A model generated the notes under the pieces. That model was given only the letters and a program-made list of their open reading frames with translations, did not search any database and was not told the origin of the DNA. Positions 9,778 to 58,741 of a stretch of 64,000 bases of DNA are shown piece after piece. The DNA is from Escherichia phage vB_vPM_PD06, in sequence record NC_052653.1; one strand, written 5' to 3'. Each line of letters starts with the position of its first letter. Positions within the stretch are counted from its first letter, which is position 1. The translations under genes were made by a program, and so were the position numbers.

Positions 9778-9854
9778 ATAATAAGTACACCACTGTAAGA
9801 AGCCTCAATGTGCTATTGACAGTTAACCAAGTCTACTCCTTGGATGGTGTTATT

Positions 9855-9929
9855 TGGTGCAGAGAGATGGTAACGATCCATCCTTTCTACCTTTTCAGGG
9901 TAGCACTAATCCGTCTCAGCTATCTCTGC
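9855..9929 (-). tRNA. tRNA-Phe (anticodon GAA)
   Basis: Acceptor GCAGAGA/TCTCTGC, anticodon arm CTACC-CTGAAAA-GGTAG, non-canonical T-loop ATCGTTA, CCA encoded. Confidence 0.65.
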
Positions 9930-9934
9930 AAATT

Positions 9935-10010
9935 TGGTCAGTGCGGCAGGACTCGAACCTGCGACCTGAAGCGTCCAAGGCTCCCACGCTACCAACTGCG
10001 CTACGCACTG
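9935..10010 (-). tRNA. tRNA-Pro (anticodon TGG)
   Basis: Acceptor CAGTGCG/CGCACTG, anticodon loop CTTGGAC, T-arm GCAGG-TTCGAGT-CCTGC, CCA encoded. Confidence 0.8.
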
Positions 10011-10017
10011 TAAATCT

Positions 10018-10092
10018 TGGCTGGAGATCTAGGAATCGAACCTAGTCATCACGACTTCAAAGGCCGTTGCCTTCCCACTAGGCTAATCTCCA
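10018..10092 (-). tRNA. tRNA-Gln (anticodon TTG)
   Basis: Acceptor TGGAGAT/ATCTCCA, anticodon arm ACGGC-CTTTGAA-GTCGT, T-arm CTAGG-TTCGATT-CCTAG, CCA encoded. Confidence 0.8.
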
Positions 10093-10523
10093 ATAAATTA
10101 CTTCAGTGTTACCACAAAGTGACGAACTGCTTTTCGTGCAGCAGAAGCCAGAGGCTTAGCATACTTAAGTTCATCTTTTTCCATTATAAATTCTCTTTTA
10201 AATGAAAATGCAGGACTTATTGGCATTGCCTGCGCAAGCCCTCAAGGGGAACATAGGTTTTTGGATATTTAACGACCAGGATAACCATAAACCCGTCATC
10301 ATTCACATTCAAGAGGTACACCATAAAACTGCCGGGGTCTTAAAACTATAATGATTCGCAAATCATTAATCAGACAGTTCGATGGCTCCTCGATTTTAGC
10401 TCACACTAAGGCAGTGAATCTCCAATAAACTAAAAAATCACTTAAAAAGAACCGCTAGAGTTTGAAGGAGAAAACCATGAGCGAAAAGAGAAATTTTCTC
10501 TAGCGATTCCATTTAAATAATCT

Positions 10524-10598
10524 TGGAGCGAGTAACAGGACTTGAACCTGCACCTGGAGGGTGGAAACCTCATATGCTACCATTAACACTATACCCGC
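10524..10598 (-). tRNA. tRNA-Gly (anticodon TCC)
   Basis: Acceptor GCGGGTA/TACTCGC, anticodon loop TTTCCAC, T-arm GCAGG-TTCAAGT-CCTGT, CCA encoded. Confidence 0.75.
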
Positions 10599-10653
10599 TT
10601 AACAATATTACTCTAACATACTATTAGCCCCTTTGTCAAGAGGCTTTTGATAC

Positions 10654-10983
10654 TTATTTTAAAATAGTAGATGCACCACGTCTGTTTAGATATGCAATAG
10701 TAAAGTCCAAATCACCTATTTCTTCAGGTTCCCACTGACCTTCTAAGCCATAACAAGAACAATGATATGCGTGTACTTCATAAAACAAAGATGTTTTCAT
10801 ATCATAAAAATAAACGTGAGATTCACCTTCATAATATGCACAATCATAAGTGGCAGAAAGAATTACAATGTTATCCTTATCTAACTCTACTTCATAATAT
10901 CTTTCAACATCTTCAATATCATCAAAACCATCGAAAACATTGATATTAAAATATTTCTCTAACTCTTTTTCTGTCACATACAC
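10654..10983 (-). CDS. Hypothetical protein embedded in tRNA array
   Basis: 109-aa ORF between tRNA-Gly and tRNA-Thr; Cys/Tyr-rich; no motif recognised. Confidence 0.5.
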   Translation of the reverse strand: MYVTEKELEKYFNINVFDGFDDIEDVERYYEVELDKDNIVILSATYDCAYYEGESHVYFYDMKTSLFYEVHAYHCSCYGLEGQWEPEEIGDLDFTIAYLNRRGASTILK

Positions 10984-10990
10984 TCCTTTA

Positions 10991-11065
10991 GAGTTAAAAT
11001 TGGTGCTCCCACAAGGACTCGAACCCTGATAAGTTGCTTACAAGGCAACCGTAATAGCCGTTATA
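10991..11065 (-). tRNA. tRNA-Thr (anticodon TGT)
   Basis: Acceptor GCTCCTA/TGGGAGC, anticodon arm GTTGC-CTTGTAA-GCAAC, T-loop TTCGAGT, CCA encoded. Confidence 0.8.
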
Positions 11066-11071
11066 CGATAG

Positions 11072-11148
11072 GAGCAATACTTGGACTCGGCAGGATTCGA
11101 TACCTGCAATTCCAGAAGCCTCTTGGCGACTGGGGGTTTACCTTAACT
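11072..11148 (-). tRNA. tRNA-like element, identity undetermined
   Basis: Acceptor GGACTTG/CGAGTCC pairs well; T-arm-like GCAGG-TATCGAAT-CCTGC with 8-nt loop; no canonical anticodon arm found by hand; CCA not encoded. Confidence 0.3.
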
Positions 11149-11155
11149 CTACAAG

Positions 11156-11240
11156 TCCATAATTCTGGCGATGGATCAAGGATTTGAACCTTGCTAGAAC
11201 TTTCGTTCACGGATTAACAGTCCGTCGCCCAACCACTAGG
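11156..11240 (-). tRNA. tRNA with anticodon GTT (Asn-type) and long extra arm
   Basis: Acceptor GATGGAT/ATCCATC, anticodon arm ACGGA-CTGTTAA-TCCGT, 15-nt variable region containing hairpin GAAC-GAAA-GTTC, T-loop TTCAAAT, CCA encoded. Confidence 0.55.
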
Positions 11241-11247
11241 CCAATCC

Positions 11248-11334
11248 ATCTTTAATTTGGTGCAGGTAGTTGGACTCGAACCAACGAAGCCCCGAAGGGC
11301 AAGAGATTTACAGTCTCCAGCAATTGCCGCTATG
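11248..11334 (-). tRNA. tRNA-Tyr (anticodon GTA)
   Basis: Acceptor GTAGGTA/TACCTGC, anticodon arm GGAGA-CTGTAAA-TCTCT, long variable arm, T-loop TTCGAGT, CCA encoded. Confidence 0.8.
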
Positions 11335-11339
11335 CGATA

Positions 11340-11415
11340 CCTACGTGTTTGGTACATCGTGAAGGATTCGAACCTTCGACCTTGGAGTTAAAAGCACCTT
11401 GCTCTACCAACTAAG
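11340..11415 (-). tRNA. tRNA-Lys (anticodon TTT)
   Basis: Perfect acceptor ACATCGT/ACGATGT, D-arm GCTT-AGTTGGTA-GAGC, anticodon loop CTTTTAA (stem has two mismatches), T-arm GAAGG-TTCGAAT-CCTTC, CCA encoded. Confidence 0.6.
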
Positions 11416-11559
11416 CTAACGATGTATAAATTATCTTTAAAATAGCCAGTGTTTGCGGCACTTAGCTATGAAGTATTGGGGTATCGGTAAAGTGGTTACC
11501 GCCACTTGCCGAAAGTTTACTCTGCTAAAGTAAGATTACAAGCTACATTAAAGATAACT

Positions 11560-11645
11560 TGGCGGTAGATGTAGGACTTGAACCTACACGCCGTTTCCGA
11601 CGACAGTTTAGCAAACTGTTGTGGCTACCATTTCACCAATCTACC
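11560..11645 (-). tRNA. tRNA-Ser (anticodon GCT)
   Basis: Acceptor GGTAGAT/ATCTACC, anticodon arm ACAGT-TTGCTAA-ACTGT, long variable arm, T-loop TTCAAGT, CCA encoded. Confidence 0.8.
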
Positions 11646-11653
11646 GTTCTTAA

Positions 11654-11806
11654 TTATTCAAAACAACCGGAATCTTTTTGTTCTGCTTTTACCATACGAA
11701 TATTTTTACCATCTTCAGATTGTTGAAGATTAGAATACTCATAAACAACTTTATTATCTACAATCTTAACTCCGGTAACAACCTGTCCAATAGTTTTATA
11801 ATTCAT
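11654..11806 (-). CDS. Small hypothetical protein
   Basis: About 50-aa ORF from ATG (MNYKTIG...) with AGGAG upstream; the longer track ORF would overlap tRNA-Ser. Confidence 0.35.
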   Translation of the reverse strand: MNYKTIGQVVTGVKIVDNKVVYEYSNLQQSEDGKNIRMVKAEQKDSGCFE

Positions 11807-11824
11807 AAAGCTCCTAGTTGAATT

Positions 11825-11914
11825 TGGAGGAAGATAATGGAGTCGAACCATCACCGTATCGCTACAATGGGCCAGGGTTCAAACCTGGTTGCGCACCGCT
11901 GCGCCCTACCTTCC
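11825..11914 (-). tRNA. tRNA-Ser (anticodon TGA)
   Basis: Acceptor GGAAGGT/ATCTTCC, anticodon arm CCAGG-TTTGAAC-CCTGG, long variable arm, T-arm GATGG-TTCGACT-CCATT, CCA encoded. Confidence 0.7.
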
Positions 11915-11975
11915 CGTTATCATACTTTAAATCTAACATAAAACTATCTTGCTTGTCAAGTAGTTTTTAAAACTT

Positions 11976-12057
11976 TTTGGTCGGGGTGACAGGATTCGAA
12001 CCTGCATACTCCAATTACTCGGTTAACGCCTGATTAGAAGTCAGGTGAGATACACCC
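11976..12057 (-). tRNA. Atypical tRNA-like gene, possibly Arg (TCT)
   Basis: Perfect acceptor CGGGGTG/CACCCCG, T-arm GCAGG-TTCGAAT-CCTGT, CCA encoded, hairpin CCTGA-CTTCTAA-TCAGG; no room for a normal D-arm. Confidence 0.4.
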
Positions 12058-12239
12058 CGTTTTCACAGTAACTATAACAAAAAACTAAGTGAATGTCAAG
12101 ATATTTTTACTAAAATTATTATTTAAATTGAAGCCTAGTTATGGAATCGAACCATATTTCGTATTTAGTTAGACAAAGCGGTCTAACATATTTTTCAGGC
12201 TTTGATGGCCTCGGAATTACCAAATACCCTACTAGGCGT

Positions 12240-12325
12240 TGGTGCAAGTGGAGGGATTCGAACCCTCAATCATTTAAGCGTTGCGTTTTAAGCACAATGT
12301 GTATCACCAATTCCACCACACTTGC
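12240..12325 (-). tRNA. tRNA-Leu (anticodon TAA)
   Basis: Perfect acceptor GCAAGTG/CACTTGC, anticodon arm TTGTG-CTTAAAA-CGCAA, long variable arm, T-arm GAGGG-TTCGAAT-CCCTC, CCA encoded. Confidence 0.75.
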
Positions 12326-12356
12326 ATATAGGAGATGCATAGCATCTCCTTTTAAA

Positions 12357-12432
12357 TGGTGGTTCCCCAGGGTTACAATCCCTGCCCTCGACACTTATGA
12401 GGTGTGCGCTCTCGTCAGTGAGCTATGGAACC
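12357..12432 (-). tRNA. tRNA with CAT anticodon (Met or Ile2), non-canonical T-loop
   Basis: D-arm GCTC-ACTGACGA-GAGC, anticodon loop CTCATAA, T-arm CAGGG-ATTGTAA-CCCTG, acceptor GGTTCCA/GGGAACC, CCA encoded. Confidence 0.65.
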
Positions 12433-27035: not shown

Positions 27036-27062
27036 AAAGGGGCGAAAGCCCCTTTATTTTTG
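27036..27062 (+). terminator. Rho-independent terminator
   Basis: AAAGGGGC-GAAA-GCCCCTTT followed by ATTTTT. Confidence 0.7.
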
Positions 27063-40122: not shown

Positions 40123-40146
40123 AAAGGGGCGAAAGCCCCTTTTATA
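40123..40146 (+). terminator. Rho-independent terminator
   Basis: AAAGGGGC-GAAA-GCCCCTTT followed by TA-rich U tract. Confidence 0.7.
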
Positions 40147-47763: not shown

Positions 47764-47767
47764 TATA

Positions 47768-47790
47768 AACCCGCTTCGGCGGGTTTTTTG
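47768..47790 (+). terminator. Rho-independent terminator
   Basis: AAACCCGC-TTCG-GCGGGTTT followed by TTTTG. Confidence 0.8.
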
Positions 47791-51400: not shown

Positions 51401-51423
51401 AAGGGGCGAAAGCCCCTTTTCTT
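51401..51423 (+). terminator. Rho-independent terminator
   Basis: AAGGGGC-GAAA-GCCCCTTTT. Confidence 0.7.
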
Positions 51424-52144: not shown

Positions 52145-52171
52145 TACAAGAAAACCCGCCGAAGCGGGTTT
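52145..52171 (-). terminator. Rho-independent terminator
   Basis: AAACCCGC-CGAA-GCGGGTTT hairpin with T-run following in minus sense. Confidence 0.65.
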
Positions 52172-54237: not shown

Positions 54238-54420
54238 TTATTCTTCCTCCTTCACTTCTTCAACTTTACGAAGCATACGTTTATCAAATGTAGCTTTCTG
54301 TAGTTGCTCATTAACATCAAACCACACCACTTCGCAAGTATCGTAAGTAGATACCATTACAGTCATTAACATTTCTTCGCTGGCAAGACGTACAATATCA
54401 CCTGTTTTAATATTTACCAT
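54238..54420 (-). CDS. Hypothetical protein
   Basis: 60-aa ORF. Confidence 0.4.
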   Translation of the reverse strand: MVNIKTGDIVRLASEEMLMTVMVSTYDTCEVVWFDVNEQLQKATFDKRMLRKVEEVKEEE

Positions 54421-54824
54421 AACTCCTCCAGAAGTTTACCAAGTTTAGTTTTAAATTCATTATCCCACGCTATGCTAACTATGTCAAGATCACCTTGTGA
54501 ATTACGTTTTGTCTCTAAATAGTAGCCACCACGCTCATATCGGTGTTTTATATGCTCGATCAGACGTTCTTTATCACTCTTAGATAAATAATCATCAAAC
54601 TCCCCATTGAAAAGATCTAAGATTGTTTGTCTATTATCTCCTAATTGAGTGATTCTAAAGCTAATCAGACACCCCTGTAAACCTATATCTGTTTGTTTAA
54701 GAGAAAACCCATGACCAAAGCCGCCTGTGACTATAACAAGCGGTTTTCCTGTGATAGAGCTTTTAATAACATCTTGCTTAGGTTCTGCCAAAGATGTTAG
54801 AAACCCTTTTAACCATTTGAACAT
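54414..54824 (-). CDS. Hypothetical protein
   Basis: 136-aa ORF. Confidence 0.5.
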   Translation of the reverse strand: MFKWLKGFLTSLAEPKQDVIKSSITGKPLVIVTGGFGHGFSLKQTDIGLQGCLISFRITQLGDNRQTILDLFNGEFDDYLSKSDKERLIEHIKHRYERGGYYLETKRNSQGDLDIVSIAWDNEFKTKLGKLLEELW

Positions 54825-54929
54825 AAACCCTCCTGTGTGGCGTGGCTTTGCCTAAGCGCCGAAGGCGCGGATCAAATATAAGCTGAATTTATTACGCCCA
54901 GGTAGCCAGGGCGCATAAATATCAGAAAT

Positions 54930-55178
54930 TTACCATCGAATAACTATTCGAGTAAAGTTTTCATCGTAATGAGATGTTTCTGTATCAATAAAAGTTGAAA
55001 AACCTTCAGCATCCAAGTTAACTTTTACAAAAGTTGGATAAAGCGTGTATATAGCAACTTCTCTGTCTCCATCTTTAGCTGCTCTCTCAATATACGAGTA
55101 GATATTTTGTAGACTATCCTTTGCTTTGTTAAGTTCTGCGTTTTCTGCCAGTTCTCTCATTTTATCTGCTACAGTCAT
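54930..55178 (-). CDS. Hypothetical protein
   Basis: 82-aa ORF. Confidence 0.45.
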   Translation of the reverse strand: MTVADKMRELAENAELNKAKDSLQNIYSYIERAAKDGDREVAIYTLYPTFVKVNLDAEGFSTFIDTETSHYDENFTRIVIRW

Positions 55179-55447
55179 TTGTCAGTATCCTTTTCAATAA
55201 ATCCTGTGGTTTTACAAGGCACACATTCGTACATTTGCCCAACATCTGCAACCACCCAACCCATTCCACTGCAATAAGGGCAGATTGTTTTGTTCTCTTT
55301 AGCATACACAGCCAGAAGTCTTTCTTCTAGCTTATTGTAATCAGCAAGAAGAACATAATCCCCTTCTGGATCTGGTACAATATCACATTGACCAGCAGCA
55401 CCTTGGCTGTACACCTCTAAGTCATATCGTGTAACCATTATTCCCAC
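55175..55447 (-). CDS. Small zinc-ribbon-like protein
   Basis: CPYCSGMG ... CVPCKTTG paired CxxC motifs. Confidence 0.45.
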   Translation of the reverse strand: MGIMVTRYDLEVYSQGAAGQCDIVPDPEGDYVLLADYNKLEERLLAVYAKENKTICPYCSGMGWVVADVGQMYECVPCKTTGFIEKDTDK

Positions 55448-55656
55448 TCCGCAATCAGTTTTGGATTTTCTGCACGAGAATAGAATGTTGTAATGTCACC
55501 GTAAGTGTACTCTTGTTCCGACAGTTTTACAAGAGAGATCATTTCACGATCTGGAGTACCGGAGATCCAATCGAACACAGCAACACCACGAGGTGTTACA
55601 TAGAAACCAGATGTATTACCAGTAAACTTATCTTTTGCTTTATATAATTTGTACAC
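55438..55656 (-). CDS. Hypothetical protein
   Basis: 72-aa ORF. Confidence 0.4.
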   Translation of the reverse strand: MYKLYKAKDKFTGNTSGFYVTPRGVAVFDWISGTPDREMISLVKLSEQEYTYGDITTFYSRAENPKLIAEWE

Positions 55657-55863
55657 TTTCTACTCCTCATAGATAAAATCTATTAAAAACCTGCTATCAA
55701 TCGGTACAAACAGTTTTACTTTTCGTAAAAAACATGCTACCCTAATCTTATATACCGAGCGATAGCGAGGTAGAGAATATTCCATGTTATACATGGAAAG
55801 AGTATATGTAATGTTACTAACTCTATAACTAACTATATACTCTTTATATCTTACTTACTACTC

Positions 55864-56550: not shown

Positions 56551-56798
56551 AGGATTGTGATCCTTAGTTCATTTTCTAAAGTATGTCTCACACATTCTTT
56601 GAAATTGTTATCAATATAAACCACACGTACCCCATGAGGTGTTTCTTTACATTCAAACACATTATATACAGTGTCAGATAAGACATGTTGTACGTTTACT
56701 TGTCCAATACCATTTTTAACCACAACCATTACTTTCAGTAAACTTGTATGGTTTTTAACTTCATCTTCTACGTATGCGACAACATCTTTGATATTCAT
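56547..56798 (-). CDS. Hypothetical protein, paralog of N-terminal domain of 62832-63293
   Basis: VKNHTSLLKV...GIGQVNVQHVLSDTVYNVFECK aligns with VKEHSSLLDV...VGIVCVRHILSETRYEVFRAK. Confidence 0.5.
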   Translation of the reverse strand: MNIKDVVAYVEDEVKNHTSLLKVMVVVKNGIGQVNVQHVLSDTVYNVFECKETPHGVRVVYIDNNFKECVRHTLENELRITIL

Positions 56799-57094
56799 CG
56801 TTTCTCCTGTTTAAGTACGATATAAGATTGACGAGATTTCCATCTCCCTATCTTAACAAGGCAAATAATGCCCCTCTTTAACAGATATTTCATATCTTCG
56901 TCATAAGCTGTTTGCAATTGCCACTTACTGTTAACAGGAAGCGAACCATGTACCCTTAAATGAGCTAACAAATACTTTCTTCGCTCCTTTCCATAAGGCA
57001 GGTATTGCCATTCTTTCTTTGATACAGGTTCATGTACTTTACGATGCCAGTAAGTAAGGTGTCTTCTTTTATGTAAACCCCTGTTCCTTACCAT
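56795..57094 (-). CDS. Hypothetical basic protein
   Basis: 99-aa ORF, Arg/Lys-rich. Confidence 0.45.
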   Translation of the reverse strand: MVRNRGLHKRRHLTYWHRKVHEPVSKKEWQYLPYGKERRKYLLAHLRVHGSLPVNSKWQLQTAYDEDMKYLLKRGIICLVKIGRWKSRQSYIVLKQEKR

Positions 57095-58507: not shown

Positions 58508-58741
58508 TTACTCCTCCCATTTTATCCAAAGGCAGTATTCTGGAACATAAACCTCCTTCCCTTTGTTATTCACAAAGGTGTACTCCACAAATTCTGCTTT
58601 ATATGTTTTGTTATATTCCTGTGCTGCTGGCACAGGACATTTTGTAATGCGCGTTTCAGTCCAACGGCGGTGTATAACCGCCTTGTTCTTTGGATCAAAC
58701 GGATGTATAAAGTGCGTTTTACTCATGTGCCATTTCCACAA
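58508..58741 (-). CDS. Hypothetical protein
   Basis: 77-aa ORF. Confidence 0.4.
   Translation of the reverse strand: MWKWHMSKTHFIHPFDPKNKAVIHRRWTETRITKCPVPAAQEYNKTYKAEFVEYTFVNNKGKEVYVPEYCLWIKWEE

What the first reader, a model, noticed from the sequence alone, without database searches (positions are those of the whole stretch)
54835..54929. GC-rich structured intergenic element in an AT-rich gene array
The gap between genes ending at 54824 and 54930 contains two strong hairpins (GCGCC-GAA-GGCGC and CGCCC-AGGTAGCCA-GGGCG) without the U-tract of a simple terminator. It could be a small RNA, an RNase processing site or a protein-binding site.
Basis: seen in the sequence. Interest (0 to 1): 0.4.

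Follow-up and report, generated by a model that had tools for sequence, protein, structure and literature searches.

The report
Conserved hairpin spacer between phage genes
This is a genus-conserved, hairpin-rich 105-base spacer between two early genes of a phi92-like E. coli phage, most likely an ordinary mRNA processing and stability signal, not a terminator, promoter or known RNA family.

Summary
The window is a phi92-like phage (Justusliebigvirus). The gap 54825-54929 lies between the homologues of phi92 gp026 and gp027, both on the minus strand. Both hairpins exist.

- **Hairpin 1:**
- **Linker:** a 14-nt AU-rich single-stranded stretch follows.
- **Hairpin 2:** a 5-bp GC hairpin lies at 54856-54868, ahead of the gp027 ribosome-binding site.

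No sigma-70 promoter, intrinsic terminator, Rfam family, tRNA or repeat fits the gap.

Across 27 sequenced relatives, only 7 of 105 positions vary. None breaks a stem pair, and one turns G.U into A-U. Relatives are too similar for covariation, and no intermediate relatives were found.

The gap sits at a synteny break. More distant phages carry either no gap or a terminator-plus-promoter cassette at this position.

My best reading (confidence about 0.45) is an intercistronic mRNA "punctuation" element. A 3' barrier hairpin, an RNase-accessible AU linker and a 5' stabiliser hairpin would uncouple the fates of two gene modules. The function is inferred, not shown.

Interest is low to moderate. 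It is a new member of a known kind.

The parts
54930..55178 (-). Upstream cistron, the homologue of phi92 gp026 (82 aa, function unknown). It is found only in Justusliebigvirus.
   Evidence: ORF; phi92 annotation; tblastn finds it in 53 records, all of this genus; PHROG of unknown function.
54883..54925 (-). HP1ext, a 43-nt imperfect hairpin on the mRNA strand with 18 bp. The lower stem is CUGA/UCAG plus AUUUAU/AUAAAU. The top is (G)CGCCC-U-GG / CC-U-GGGCG(U) with a CUA loop. Energy is -18.6 kcal/mol.
   Evidence: Fold. z = -4.6 with 0 of 1000 shuffles as stable. All 18 pairs are kept in 10 haplotypes.
54895..54913 (-). In the fold the 9-nt 'loop' closes further by two G-C pairs around a U.U mismatch, leaving a 3-nt loop.
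   Evidence: -9.9 kcal/mol; -11.9 with the G.U pair.
54869..54882 (-). AU-rich linker CUUAUAUUUGAUCC between the two hairpins. It is predicted to be partly single-stranded and contains UAUUUG and AU|AUU, which resemble RNase E sites.
   Evidence: Unpaired-probability profile; sequence. The match to RNase E motifs is by eye, from recalled literature, and carries little information.
54856..54868 (-). HP2: GCGCC-UUC-GGCGC, 5 G-C pairs and a 3-nt loop, -7.1 kcal/mol. Its centre lies about 38 nt upstream of the gp027 AUG.
   Evidence: Invariant in all 27 sequences.
54844..54852 (-). Weak mini-hairpin GGC-AAA-GCC (-3 kcal/mol). It can instead form GGCG..CGCC together with the 3' arm of HP2 (-6.6 kcal/mol; -8.3 with four flanking bases).
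   Evidence: Invariant, but too short to be significant alone.
54828..54833 (-). Shine-Dalgarno sequence GGAGGG of gp027. It reads GGAGAG in 20 of 27 relatives.
   Evidence: (annotated RBS in phi92).
54414..54824 (-). Downstream cistron, the homologue of phi92 gp027 (136 aa, function unknown). It has distant homologues (41-50% identity) in other Stephanstirmvirinae.

Best explanation
The gap is a structured intercistronic segment of the early, minus-strand polycistronic mRNA of a phi92-like phage. It acts as mRNA "punctuation", not as a transcription start or an efficient stop.

Proposed mechanism:
1. RNA polymerase reads through from gp024-026 into gp027 and beyond.
2. The 43-nt hairpin HP1ext forms just after the gp026 stop. 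It serves as a 3' barrier against 3'-to-5' exonucleases and may also cause pausing or weak termination.
3. The 14-nt AU-rich linker is the accessible site for endonucleolytic cleavage. RNase E is the most likely enzyme. RNase III cutting within the 18-bp HP1ext is the alternative.
4. HP2 then sits near the new 5' end of the gp027-and-downstream message and slows 5'-end-dependent decay.

The net effect would be that two gene modules joined at this point get independent half-lives and expression levels.

Shown: the structure, its statistical excess, its conservation, the absence of promoter and terminator signals, and the synteny break.

Inferred: cleavage, stabilisation and the enzymes involved.
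For: 1. Both hairpins are predicted with near-certainty on the mRNA strand, and the linker is partly unpaired. HP1ext has z = -4.6.
2. The minus-strand RNA folds better than the plus-strand RNA. HP1ext is -18.6 against -15.4 kcal/mol. The whole gap has z = -2.1 against -1.3. A G.U pair exists only on the minus strand.
3. The gap is constrained. In 15 genomes, 5 of 105 positions are polymorphic against 62 of 308 third-codon positions of the flanking genes (Fisher p = 1e-4). That rate matches codon positions 1+2.
4. In 27 sequences, the 7 variable sites are a bulge (54921), the HP1 loop (54905), the base just 3' of HP1ext (54882), a linker insertion, two sites near the SD, and one G.U to A-U change (54914). 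All 26 pairs are kept in all haplotypes.
5. It is not an intrinsic terminator: d-scores are -33 to -54 against +10 to +30 for the phage's U-tract terminators. It is not a sigma-70 promoter.
6. GC hairpins in intercistronic gaps are the rule in this phage: 22 loci against 1.2 expected. Several others also have only a UU(A) tail just before an SD.
7. The gap sits at a module junction. gp026 is genus-specific. In phAPEC8 the gp024 and gp025 homologues lie downstream of the gp027 homologue. In phiWec179 and PsgM04F a terminator-like C(UUCG)G hairpin overlapping TTGACA-N17-TATTGT precedes the gp027 homologue.
Against: - There are no expression, 5'/3'-end or half-life data for any Justusliebigvirus.
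- There is no compensatory double substitution; 25 of 26 pairs never vary. The structure is therefore supported only by thermodynamics and by where polymorphisms fall (about p = 0.02 by a rough count).
- The non-hairpin parts of the gap are conserved as strongly as the stems. A simple barrier-hairpin model does not require that.
- The RNase E motif carries very little information.
- HP1ext has 18 bp with bulges, which is at the short end for RNase III substrates.
- The gp027 homologues of phAPEC8, Tr1 and 05F01 do without any such spacer.
Confidence: 0.45

Rival explanations
1. Leaky terminator, pause site or attenuator. HP1ext, followed by the U-rich CUUAUAUUUGAU, stops a fraction of polymerases. 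This would separate an upstream (immediate-early) unit from a downstream (delayed-early) unit.
For: The tail after the extended stem has 7 U in 12 nt. At the equivalent place, phiWec179 and PsgM04F have a canonical terminator-like hairpin with the tail UAUUGUUUGU. The phage uses many hairpins of graded terminator quality.
Against: The d-score is -44 (extended stem) or -54 (core), against +10 to +30 for the phage's U-tract terminators. The base of the stem is A-U rich and the U-run is interrupted. The scan finds no terminator in the gap.
Confidence: 0.15
2. Translational operator or regulatory leader of gp027. HP2, the downstream C-rich leader and the SD would be bound by a phage RNA-binding protein, possibly gp026 or gp027 itself. 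Alternatively they switch between competing pairings to set gp027 translation.
For: HP2 lies about 38 nt upstream of the AUG. This matches the layout of the T4 gene 43 operator, which is a hairpin about 40 nt upstream plus RBS sequence (PMC3014915). The leader between HP2 and the SD is invariant apart from one C/U site. The 3' arm of HP2 can alternatively pair with the downstream CGCC: -6.6 to -8.3 kcal/mol against -7.1 to -8.5 for HP2.
Against: No RNA-binding domain was detected in gp026 or gp027, and the AF2 models are uninformative. The predicted SD-sequestering helix is weakened by the GGAGAG variant carried by 20 of 27 genomes.
Confidence: 0.12
3. DNA-level site. The two palindromes would be operators for a dimeric phage or host protein. 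For example, an activator-dependent promoter could use the -10-like TATATT (54879-54874 on the minus strand), with the HP1 palindrome centred near -36.
For: TATATT is a 5/6 match to the -10 consensus, and the HP1 core is an inverted repeat overlapping the -35 position (sequence). The phi92 and BASEL annotations call gp026 and gp027 'potential transcription regulators'. The whole gap is conserved, not only the stems.
Against: There is no -35 match and no extended -10, and the scan finds no promoter on either strand. The palindromes are unique in the window and in each genome, so they are not a promoter class. The G.U pair and the better minus-strand fold favour RNA. The 'regulator' labels have no detectable domain support.
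Confidence: 0.12
4. Processive antitermination site, like lambda nut or HK022 put. The hairpins in the nascent RNA would load a factor onto RNA polymerase, or modify it directly, so that it reads through downstream terminators.
For: Short GC-stem hairpins sit in an early operon just after a stop codon, with a weak boxA-like AGCUUAUA 8 nt upstream of HP2 (by eye). There are two adjacent hairpins, as in put. A very basic arginine-rich early protein is encoded nearby (56795-57094).
Against: The boxA match is only 5 of 8. The HP2 loop is UUC, not a GNRA-like pentaloop. No N-like or Q-like protein was identified. Nothing in Rfam matches. All of this rests on recalled consensus sequences.
Confidence: 0.05
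5. Independent small RNA gene, or a stable RNA processed out of the gap.
For: The RNA is compact, stable and conserved.
Against: There is no promoter or terminator on either strand and no Rfam match. The element is on the sense strand, 12 nt after a stop codon and directly upstream of an SD.
Confidence: 0.04
6. Evolutionary relic. The hairpins would be decayed terminator or junction sequences left by the recombination that joined two modules. They appear conserved only because the genus is young.
For: The gap lies at a synteny break. Pairwise divergence from phi92 is ordinary: 2.9% in the gap against 0.7-5.8% in the genes. Other subfamily members lack any spacer.
Against: Polymorphism density is four-fold lower than at third-codon positions of the flanking genes (p = 1e-4). 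No variable site breaks a stem.
Confidence: 0.07

Closest known systems
Intercistronic stabiliser hairpins in polycistronic mRNAs, such as E. coli REP/BIME elements in malEFG (Newbury et al. 1987, recalled)
   Same: A GC-rich imperfect palindrome of about 35-45 nt lies between two cistrons of one operon. It has no U-tract and is not a terminator. The proposed role is a barrier to 3' exonucleases that gives the upstream segment its own half-life.
   Different: There is no sequence similarity to any E. coli genome. It is single-copy, not a dispersed repeat. A second hairpin and a conserved leader follow it.
Phage T7 and T3 early-region RNase III processing sites, and RNase E sites flanked by stem-loops (T4 mRNAs, reviewed in PMC3014915)
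   Same: It lies between early cistrons. It combines an irregular hairpin carrying bulges with an AU-rich single-stranded segment. The expected outcome is mature mRNAs ending in a 3' hairpin.
   Different: HP1ext has only 18 bp, without the internal-loop architecture of T7 R sites. No cleavage data exist. There is no sequence similarity.
PeSL composite terminator/promoter cassettes of T4-like phages (PMC2839356, PMC4122927)
   Same: A stem-loop-containing intergenic cassette sits at a junction of variable gene modules. The relatives phiWec179 and PsgM04F carry a true hairpin plus TTGACA-N17-TATTGT composite at the same place. The window's own terminators (AAAGGGGC-GAAA-GCCCCTTT, three copies) resemble PeSL stem-loops.
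   Different: This gap has no sigma-70 promoter and no U-tract, and its sequence is not repeated elsewhere in the genome.
T4 intercistronic C(UUCG)G hairpins (Tuerk et al. 1988, recalled)
   Same: HP2 contains the hexamer CUUCGG within a GC stem, in a phage intercistronic region.
   Different: The stem register makes a UUC triloop with 5 G-C pairs. The tetraloop register would leave a C.C mismatch next to the closing pair.
T4 gene 43 translational operator (PMC3014915)
   Same: A short hairpin lies about 40 nt upstream of the start codon and is followed by a conserved leader up to the RBS.
   Different: No repressor is known. The loop and stem are unrelated. A second, larger hairpin lies upstream.

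Membership tests
Intrinsic (Rho-independent) terminator | GC-rich stem-loop | tested here: met
   HP1 core is -9.9 to -11.9 kcal/mol and HP2 is -7.1 kcal/mol.
Intrinsic (Rho-independent) terminator | Run of U directly 3' of the stem, giving a positive d-score (d'Aubenton-Carafa formula, recalled from memory) | tested here: not met
   T-tail scores are 0.46-1.71 and d = -33 to -54. The phage's U-tract terminators score T about 3.5-4.8 and d = +10 to +30. The scan finds no site in the gap.
Sigma-70 promoter | -35 and -10 hexamers (at least 9 of 12 matches) spaced 16-18 bp apart | tested here: not met
   No site on either strand within 54825-54929. By eye, TTGATC-N17-GGCAAA and a -35-less TATATT are the best candidates.
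Any Rfam 15 RNA family | Covariance-model match at or above the gathering score | tested here: not met
   The only hit in the gap is a 13.7-bit partial match with E = 9.3 (Acido-Lenti-1, gathering score 37). The whole window at gathering threshold gives only tRNAs.
RNase III processing site (T7 R-site type) | Irregular double-stranded helix of about two turns (about 20 bp) | tested here: inconclusive
   HP1ext has 18 bp plus one U.U mismatch and two 1-nt bulges.
RNase III processing site (T7 R-site type) | RNase III-dependent cleavage | not testable with these tools
   No RNA-end data exist for this genus.
RNase E site flanked by stem-loops | AU-rich single-stranded segment next to stable hairpins | tested here: met
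   The linker CUUAUAUUUGAUCC lies between HP1ext and HP2, with unpaired probability of about 0.3-0.8. The motif carries little information.
RNase E site flanked by stem-loops | 5'-monophosphate ends generated in an rne-dependent way | not testable with these tools
   Needs infection experiments.
REP/BIME elements | Similarity to the E. coli REP consensus, and dispersed repetition | tested here: not met
   No blastn match in 5,426 E. coli genomes at E <= 10. Single copy in the window and in each phage genome.
PeSL terminator/promoter cassette | Stem-loop directly combined with an early sigma-70-type promoter, repeated at several module junctions | tested here: not met
   No promoter and the sequence is unique. 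The feature is met in the relatives phiWec179 and PsgM04F.
Lambda-type nut site | boxA consensus followed by a boxB hairpin with a GNRA-like pentaloop | tested here: not met
   By eye, AGCUUAUA against CGCUCUUA matches at 5 of 8 positions. The HP2 loop is UUC. The consensus sequences are recalled from memory.
Conserved structured RNA (covariation-supported) | Compensatory base-pair changes across relatives | tested here: inconclusive
   There are 26 pairs. 25 never vary, one varies on one side (G.U to A-U), and none shows a double change. Relatives are at least 97% identical.
Small RNA gene | Own promoter and terminator delimiting a discrete transcript | tested here: not met
   Expression itself is not testable here.

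The most novel reading that the evidence does not exclude
The whole 105-nt spacer, not just its stems, would be a cis-acting regulatory RNA specific to Justusliebigvirus. One possibility is a put/nut-like element that makes RNA polymerase terminator-resistant. Another is a leader that switches between the competing GCGCC/GGCGC/CGCC pairings on binding a phage early protein, and so times expression of the gp027-and-downstream module.
Probability: 0.08. Interest if true: 0.55.

Novelty: new member of a known kind. Interest (0 to 1): 0.25.

Why it matters
If correct, it defines a transcript boundary in the otherwise unannotated early region of phi92-like phages. These phages have a broad host range and are being explored for therapy. 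Such a boundary would show how two recombined gene modules are given separate mRNA fates.

It is also a compact natural candidate for an insulator or stabiliser part.

It would not change any general concept. Intercistronic hairpins that shape mRNA decay have been known since the 1980s.

Tried and rejected
- **Rfam:** a permissive search and a gathering-threshold search both gave nothing. tRNA/tmRNA search found none in the gap.
- **Covariation:** impossible, because there are only 10 haplotypes and 25 of 26 pairs are invariant.
- **Intermediate relatives:** searches returned only sequences with at least 93% protein identity or chance hits.
  - IMG/VR by protein and by DNA pattern.
  - Metagenome contigs by DNA pattern.
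  - The 5.8-billion-protein search.
- **Repeat family:** both hairpins are unique in the window at up to 3 mismatches. There is one place per phage genome.
- **Host origin or REP element:** no E. coli match.
- **Dcm/EcoRII idea** (two CCWGG sites in HP1): CCWGG is not avoided in the window, with 74 found against 48 expected.
- **Leader peptide:** a 14-codon ORF (54916-54872) exists. Its AUG is lost in SD2 and PHB05, and it is frameshifted in UAB_1.
- **SD-sequestering helix:** weakened by the majority SD variant GGAGAG.
- **T4 MotA-box middle promoter, T4 late promoter and lambda boxA/boxB:** checked by eye, with no convincing match.
- **Function of gp026 and gp027:**
  - Pfam, PHROGs and PDB sequence searches were uninformative.
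  - AF2 models had pLDDT 36.8 and 55.5, so no fold search was run.
- **Literature:** no transcriptome or end-mapping study of this genus or subfamily was found.

Full report
**Identity and orientation.** The window is 95-99% identical to 53 records over the 1.2 kb around the finding (window 54300-55500). Nearly all of these are Justusliebigvirus (Stephanstirmvirinae), the phi92-like E. coli myoviruses. In phi92 the gap corresponds to 8781-8885, between gp026 and gp027, and carries no annotated feature apart from the gp027 RBS. All genes from about 51870 to the right end of the window are on the minus strand. The gap is therefore read 54929 to 54825. It follows the gp026 stop (54930-54932) and precedes the gp027 SD (54828-54833) and AUG (54822-54824).

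**Observation.** Both hairpins are present at the stated coordinates. The gap is 48% G+C in a 37% genome.

- CUGA / UCAG
- a bulged U
- AUUUAU / AUAAAU
- a G.U pair with a bulged A on its 3' side
- CGCCC / GGGCG
- a U.U mismatch
- GG / CC closing a CUA loop

This gives 18 pairs, -18.6 kcal/mol and z = -4.6, with 0 of 1000 shuffles as stable. HP2 (54868 to 54856) is GCGCC-UUC-GGCGC at -7.1 kcal/mol. Between the two lies a 14-nt AU-rich linker, CUUAUAUUUGAUCC, which is partly unpaired in the ensemble. Downstream come a weak GGC-AAA-GCC hairpin, a C-rich stretch and the SD.

Perfect GC-rich hairpins are about 18-fold enriched in this window (22 loci against 1.2 +/- 1.0 in shuffles). Two of them in one 105-nt gap is not chance.

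**What it is not.**
- The sigma-70 scan and the terminator scan report nothing in the gap on either strand.
- I applied a d'Aubenton-Carafa-type score, using the formula from memory. HP1 core, HP1ext and HP2 score -54, -44 and -33.
- The phage's other intergenic hairpins score -23 to +30. Those with clear U-tracts, such as GGGGC-GAAA-GCCCC+UUUU and CCCGC-UUCG-GCGGG+UUUU, score +10 to +30. The low end belongs to hairpins with short UU(A) tails just before an SD.
- Rfam gives no credible hit, and there is no tRNA in the gap.
- The hairpin sequences are unique in the window and occur once per relative genome.
- There is no similarity to E. coli genomes, so the element is not REP-derived.
- A 14-codon ORF in the gap is not conserved.

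**Conservation.** In a 15-genome alignment of 1.55 kb, 5 of 105 gap positions are polymorphic, plus one indel. This compares with 62 of 308 third-codon positions in gp025-027 (Fisher p = 1e-4) and 28 of 616 first and second positions. Of the 53 records, 30 are identical over the gap and the rest differ at 1-3 positions.

After fetching the variants (27 sequences, 10 haplotypes), the variable sites are as follows:

| Position | Change | Location |
|---|---|---|
| 54921 | U/C | bulge in HP1ext |
| 54914 | G/A | G.U becomes A-U |
| 54905 | C/U | HP1 loop |
| 54882 | C/U | first base 3' of HP1ext |
| after 54879 | +U | linker |
| 54835 | C/U | leader |
| 54829 | G/A | SD |

All 26 proposed pairs are kept in every haplotype. 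However, 25 never vary and none shows a double change, so this is no covariation evidence. Against phi92 alone the gap is no more conserved than the genes. The constraint is therefore real but modest, and it extends to the unpaired parts.

**Relatives.** gp026 exists only in this genus. gp027 has homologues at 41-50% identity in other Stephanstirmvirinae.
- In phAPEC8, Tr1 and 05F01 the gp027 homologue abuts the preceding gene with no spacer.
- In phiWec179 and PsgM04F a 61-nt spacer holds ACACCCUC-UUCG-GAGGGUGU followed by UAUUGUUUGU. This overlaps TTGACA-N17-TATTGT, giving a composite terminator/promoter.
- In phAPEC8 the gp024 and gp025 homologues lie downstream of the gp027 homologue, so the gap marks a synteny break.
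- No intermediate relatives were found in IMG/VR, in metagenome contigs or in the 5.8-billion-protein collection.

**Interpretation.** The anatomy has four parts in order:
- a long 3'-barrier-type hairpin right after a stop codon
- an accessible AU-rich linker
- a short GC hairpin
- a conserved leader with the SD

There are no start or stop signals for transcription. This best fits an intercistronic mRNA processing and stability element. Its function would be analogous to REP stabilisers and to the hairpin-flanked RNase sites of T7 and T4 early mRNAs (PMC3014915; other references are recalled from memory).

The better fold and the G.U pair on the minus strand favour an RNA-level role. The module-junction position recalls the PeSL cassettes of T4-like phages (PMC4122927), but the defining promoter and the repetition are missing here.

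The rivals cannot be excluded without RNA-end mapping. They are a leaky terminator or pause site, a translational operator, a DNA operator or activator-dependent promoter, an antitermination site, a small RNA, and a relic.

**Flanking proteins.** The flanking proteins give no help. Pfam, PHROGs and PDB sequence searches were uninformative, and the AF2 models have low confidence.

**Verdict.** The feature is real, conserved and structured. It is an unannotated but unsurprising member of the class of intercistronic mRNA hairpin elements. Its function is inferred, not shown.

Noticed in passing
window 54459-54487 (minus strand): A near-consensus sigma-70 promoter lies inside the gp027 coding sequence: TTGACA-N17-GATAAT with an upstream TG, 11 of 12 matches. 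It sits about 35 nt upstream of the gp028 start. Both hexamers are invariant in 15 genomes, while the spacer varies.
   Followed up: partly
window 27036-27055, 40123-40142, 51401-51418; 47767-47786 and 52152-52171: The same terminator hairpins recur in several gaps. AAAGGGGC-GAAA-GCCCCTTT occurs three times. AAACCCGC-TTCG-GCGGGTTT occurs twice, once on each strand. Some are followed by sigma-70-like promoters, which resembles the PeSL cassettes of T4-like phages.
   Followed up: partly
phage records MG065639, MG065645, MG065656, MG065689: Four unannotated records named 'Campylobacter phage' (host C. jejuni) are 98.5-99.7% identical to this E. coli Justusliebigvirus locus. The host labels look doubtful.
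   Followed up: no
L003 (Pseudomonas phage PsgM04F) and L004 (E. coli phage phiWec179), positions 1440-1500: A phage listed with a Pseudomonas host is almost identical at this locus to an E. coli Phapecoctavirus. Both carry a composite in which a C(UUCG)G or C(UUUG)G hairpin fills the 17-bp spacer of a TTGACA...TATTGT promoter.
   Followed up: partly
window 58617-58637 and 58666-58682: Two GC-rich hairpins lie 49 nt apart, with T-rich tails on the + strand. They sit inside a minus-strand ORF (58508-58741), so they look like terminators facing against the gene array.
   Followed up: partly
window 55657-55863: A 207-nt AT-rich gap (30% G+C) between the gp023 and gp024 homologues contains a long inverted repeat (AAAGAGTATAT...ATATACTCTTT) and a second hairpin (TTCCATGTATAACATGGAA). 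It differs from phi92 at only 3 of 207 positions.
   Followed up: no
window 56795-57094 (minus strand): The gp019 homologue (99 aa) has a very basic, arginine-rich N-terminus (MVRNRGLHKRRHLTYWHRKVH). It could be a nucleic-acid-binding early protein. It belongs to a PHROG of unknown function.
   Followed up: no
window 9377-12432 (minus strand): This is a tRNA cluster. ARAGORN finds 15 tRNA genes. Rfam finds 14, including one at 11981-12059 that ARAGORN does not list, and it misses three that ARAGORN reports (11825-11914, 12357-12432 and one more).
   Followed up: no
L005 (phAPEC8) 2499-3107 compared with window 55175-55656: The gp024 and gp025 homologues lie downstream of the gp027 homologue in phAPEC8 but upstream of it in Justusliebigvirus. 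This is a module rearrangement whose junction coincides with the gap.
   Followed up: partly
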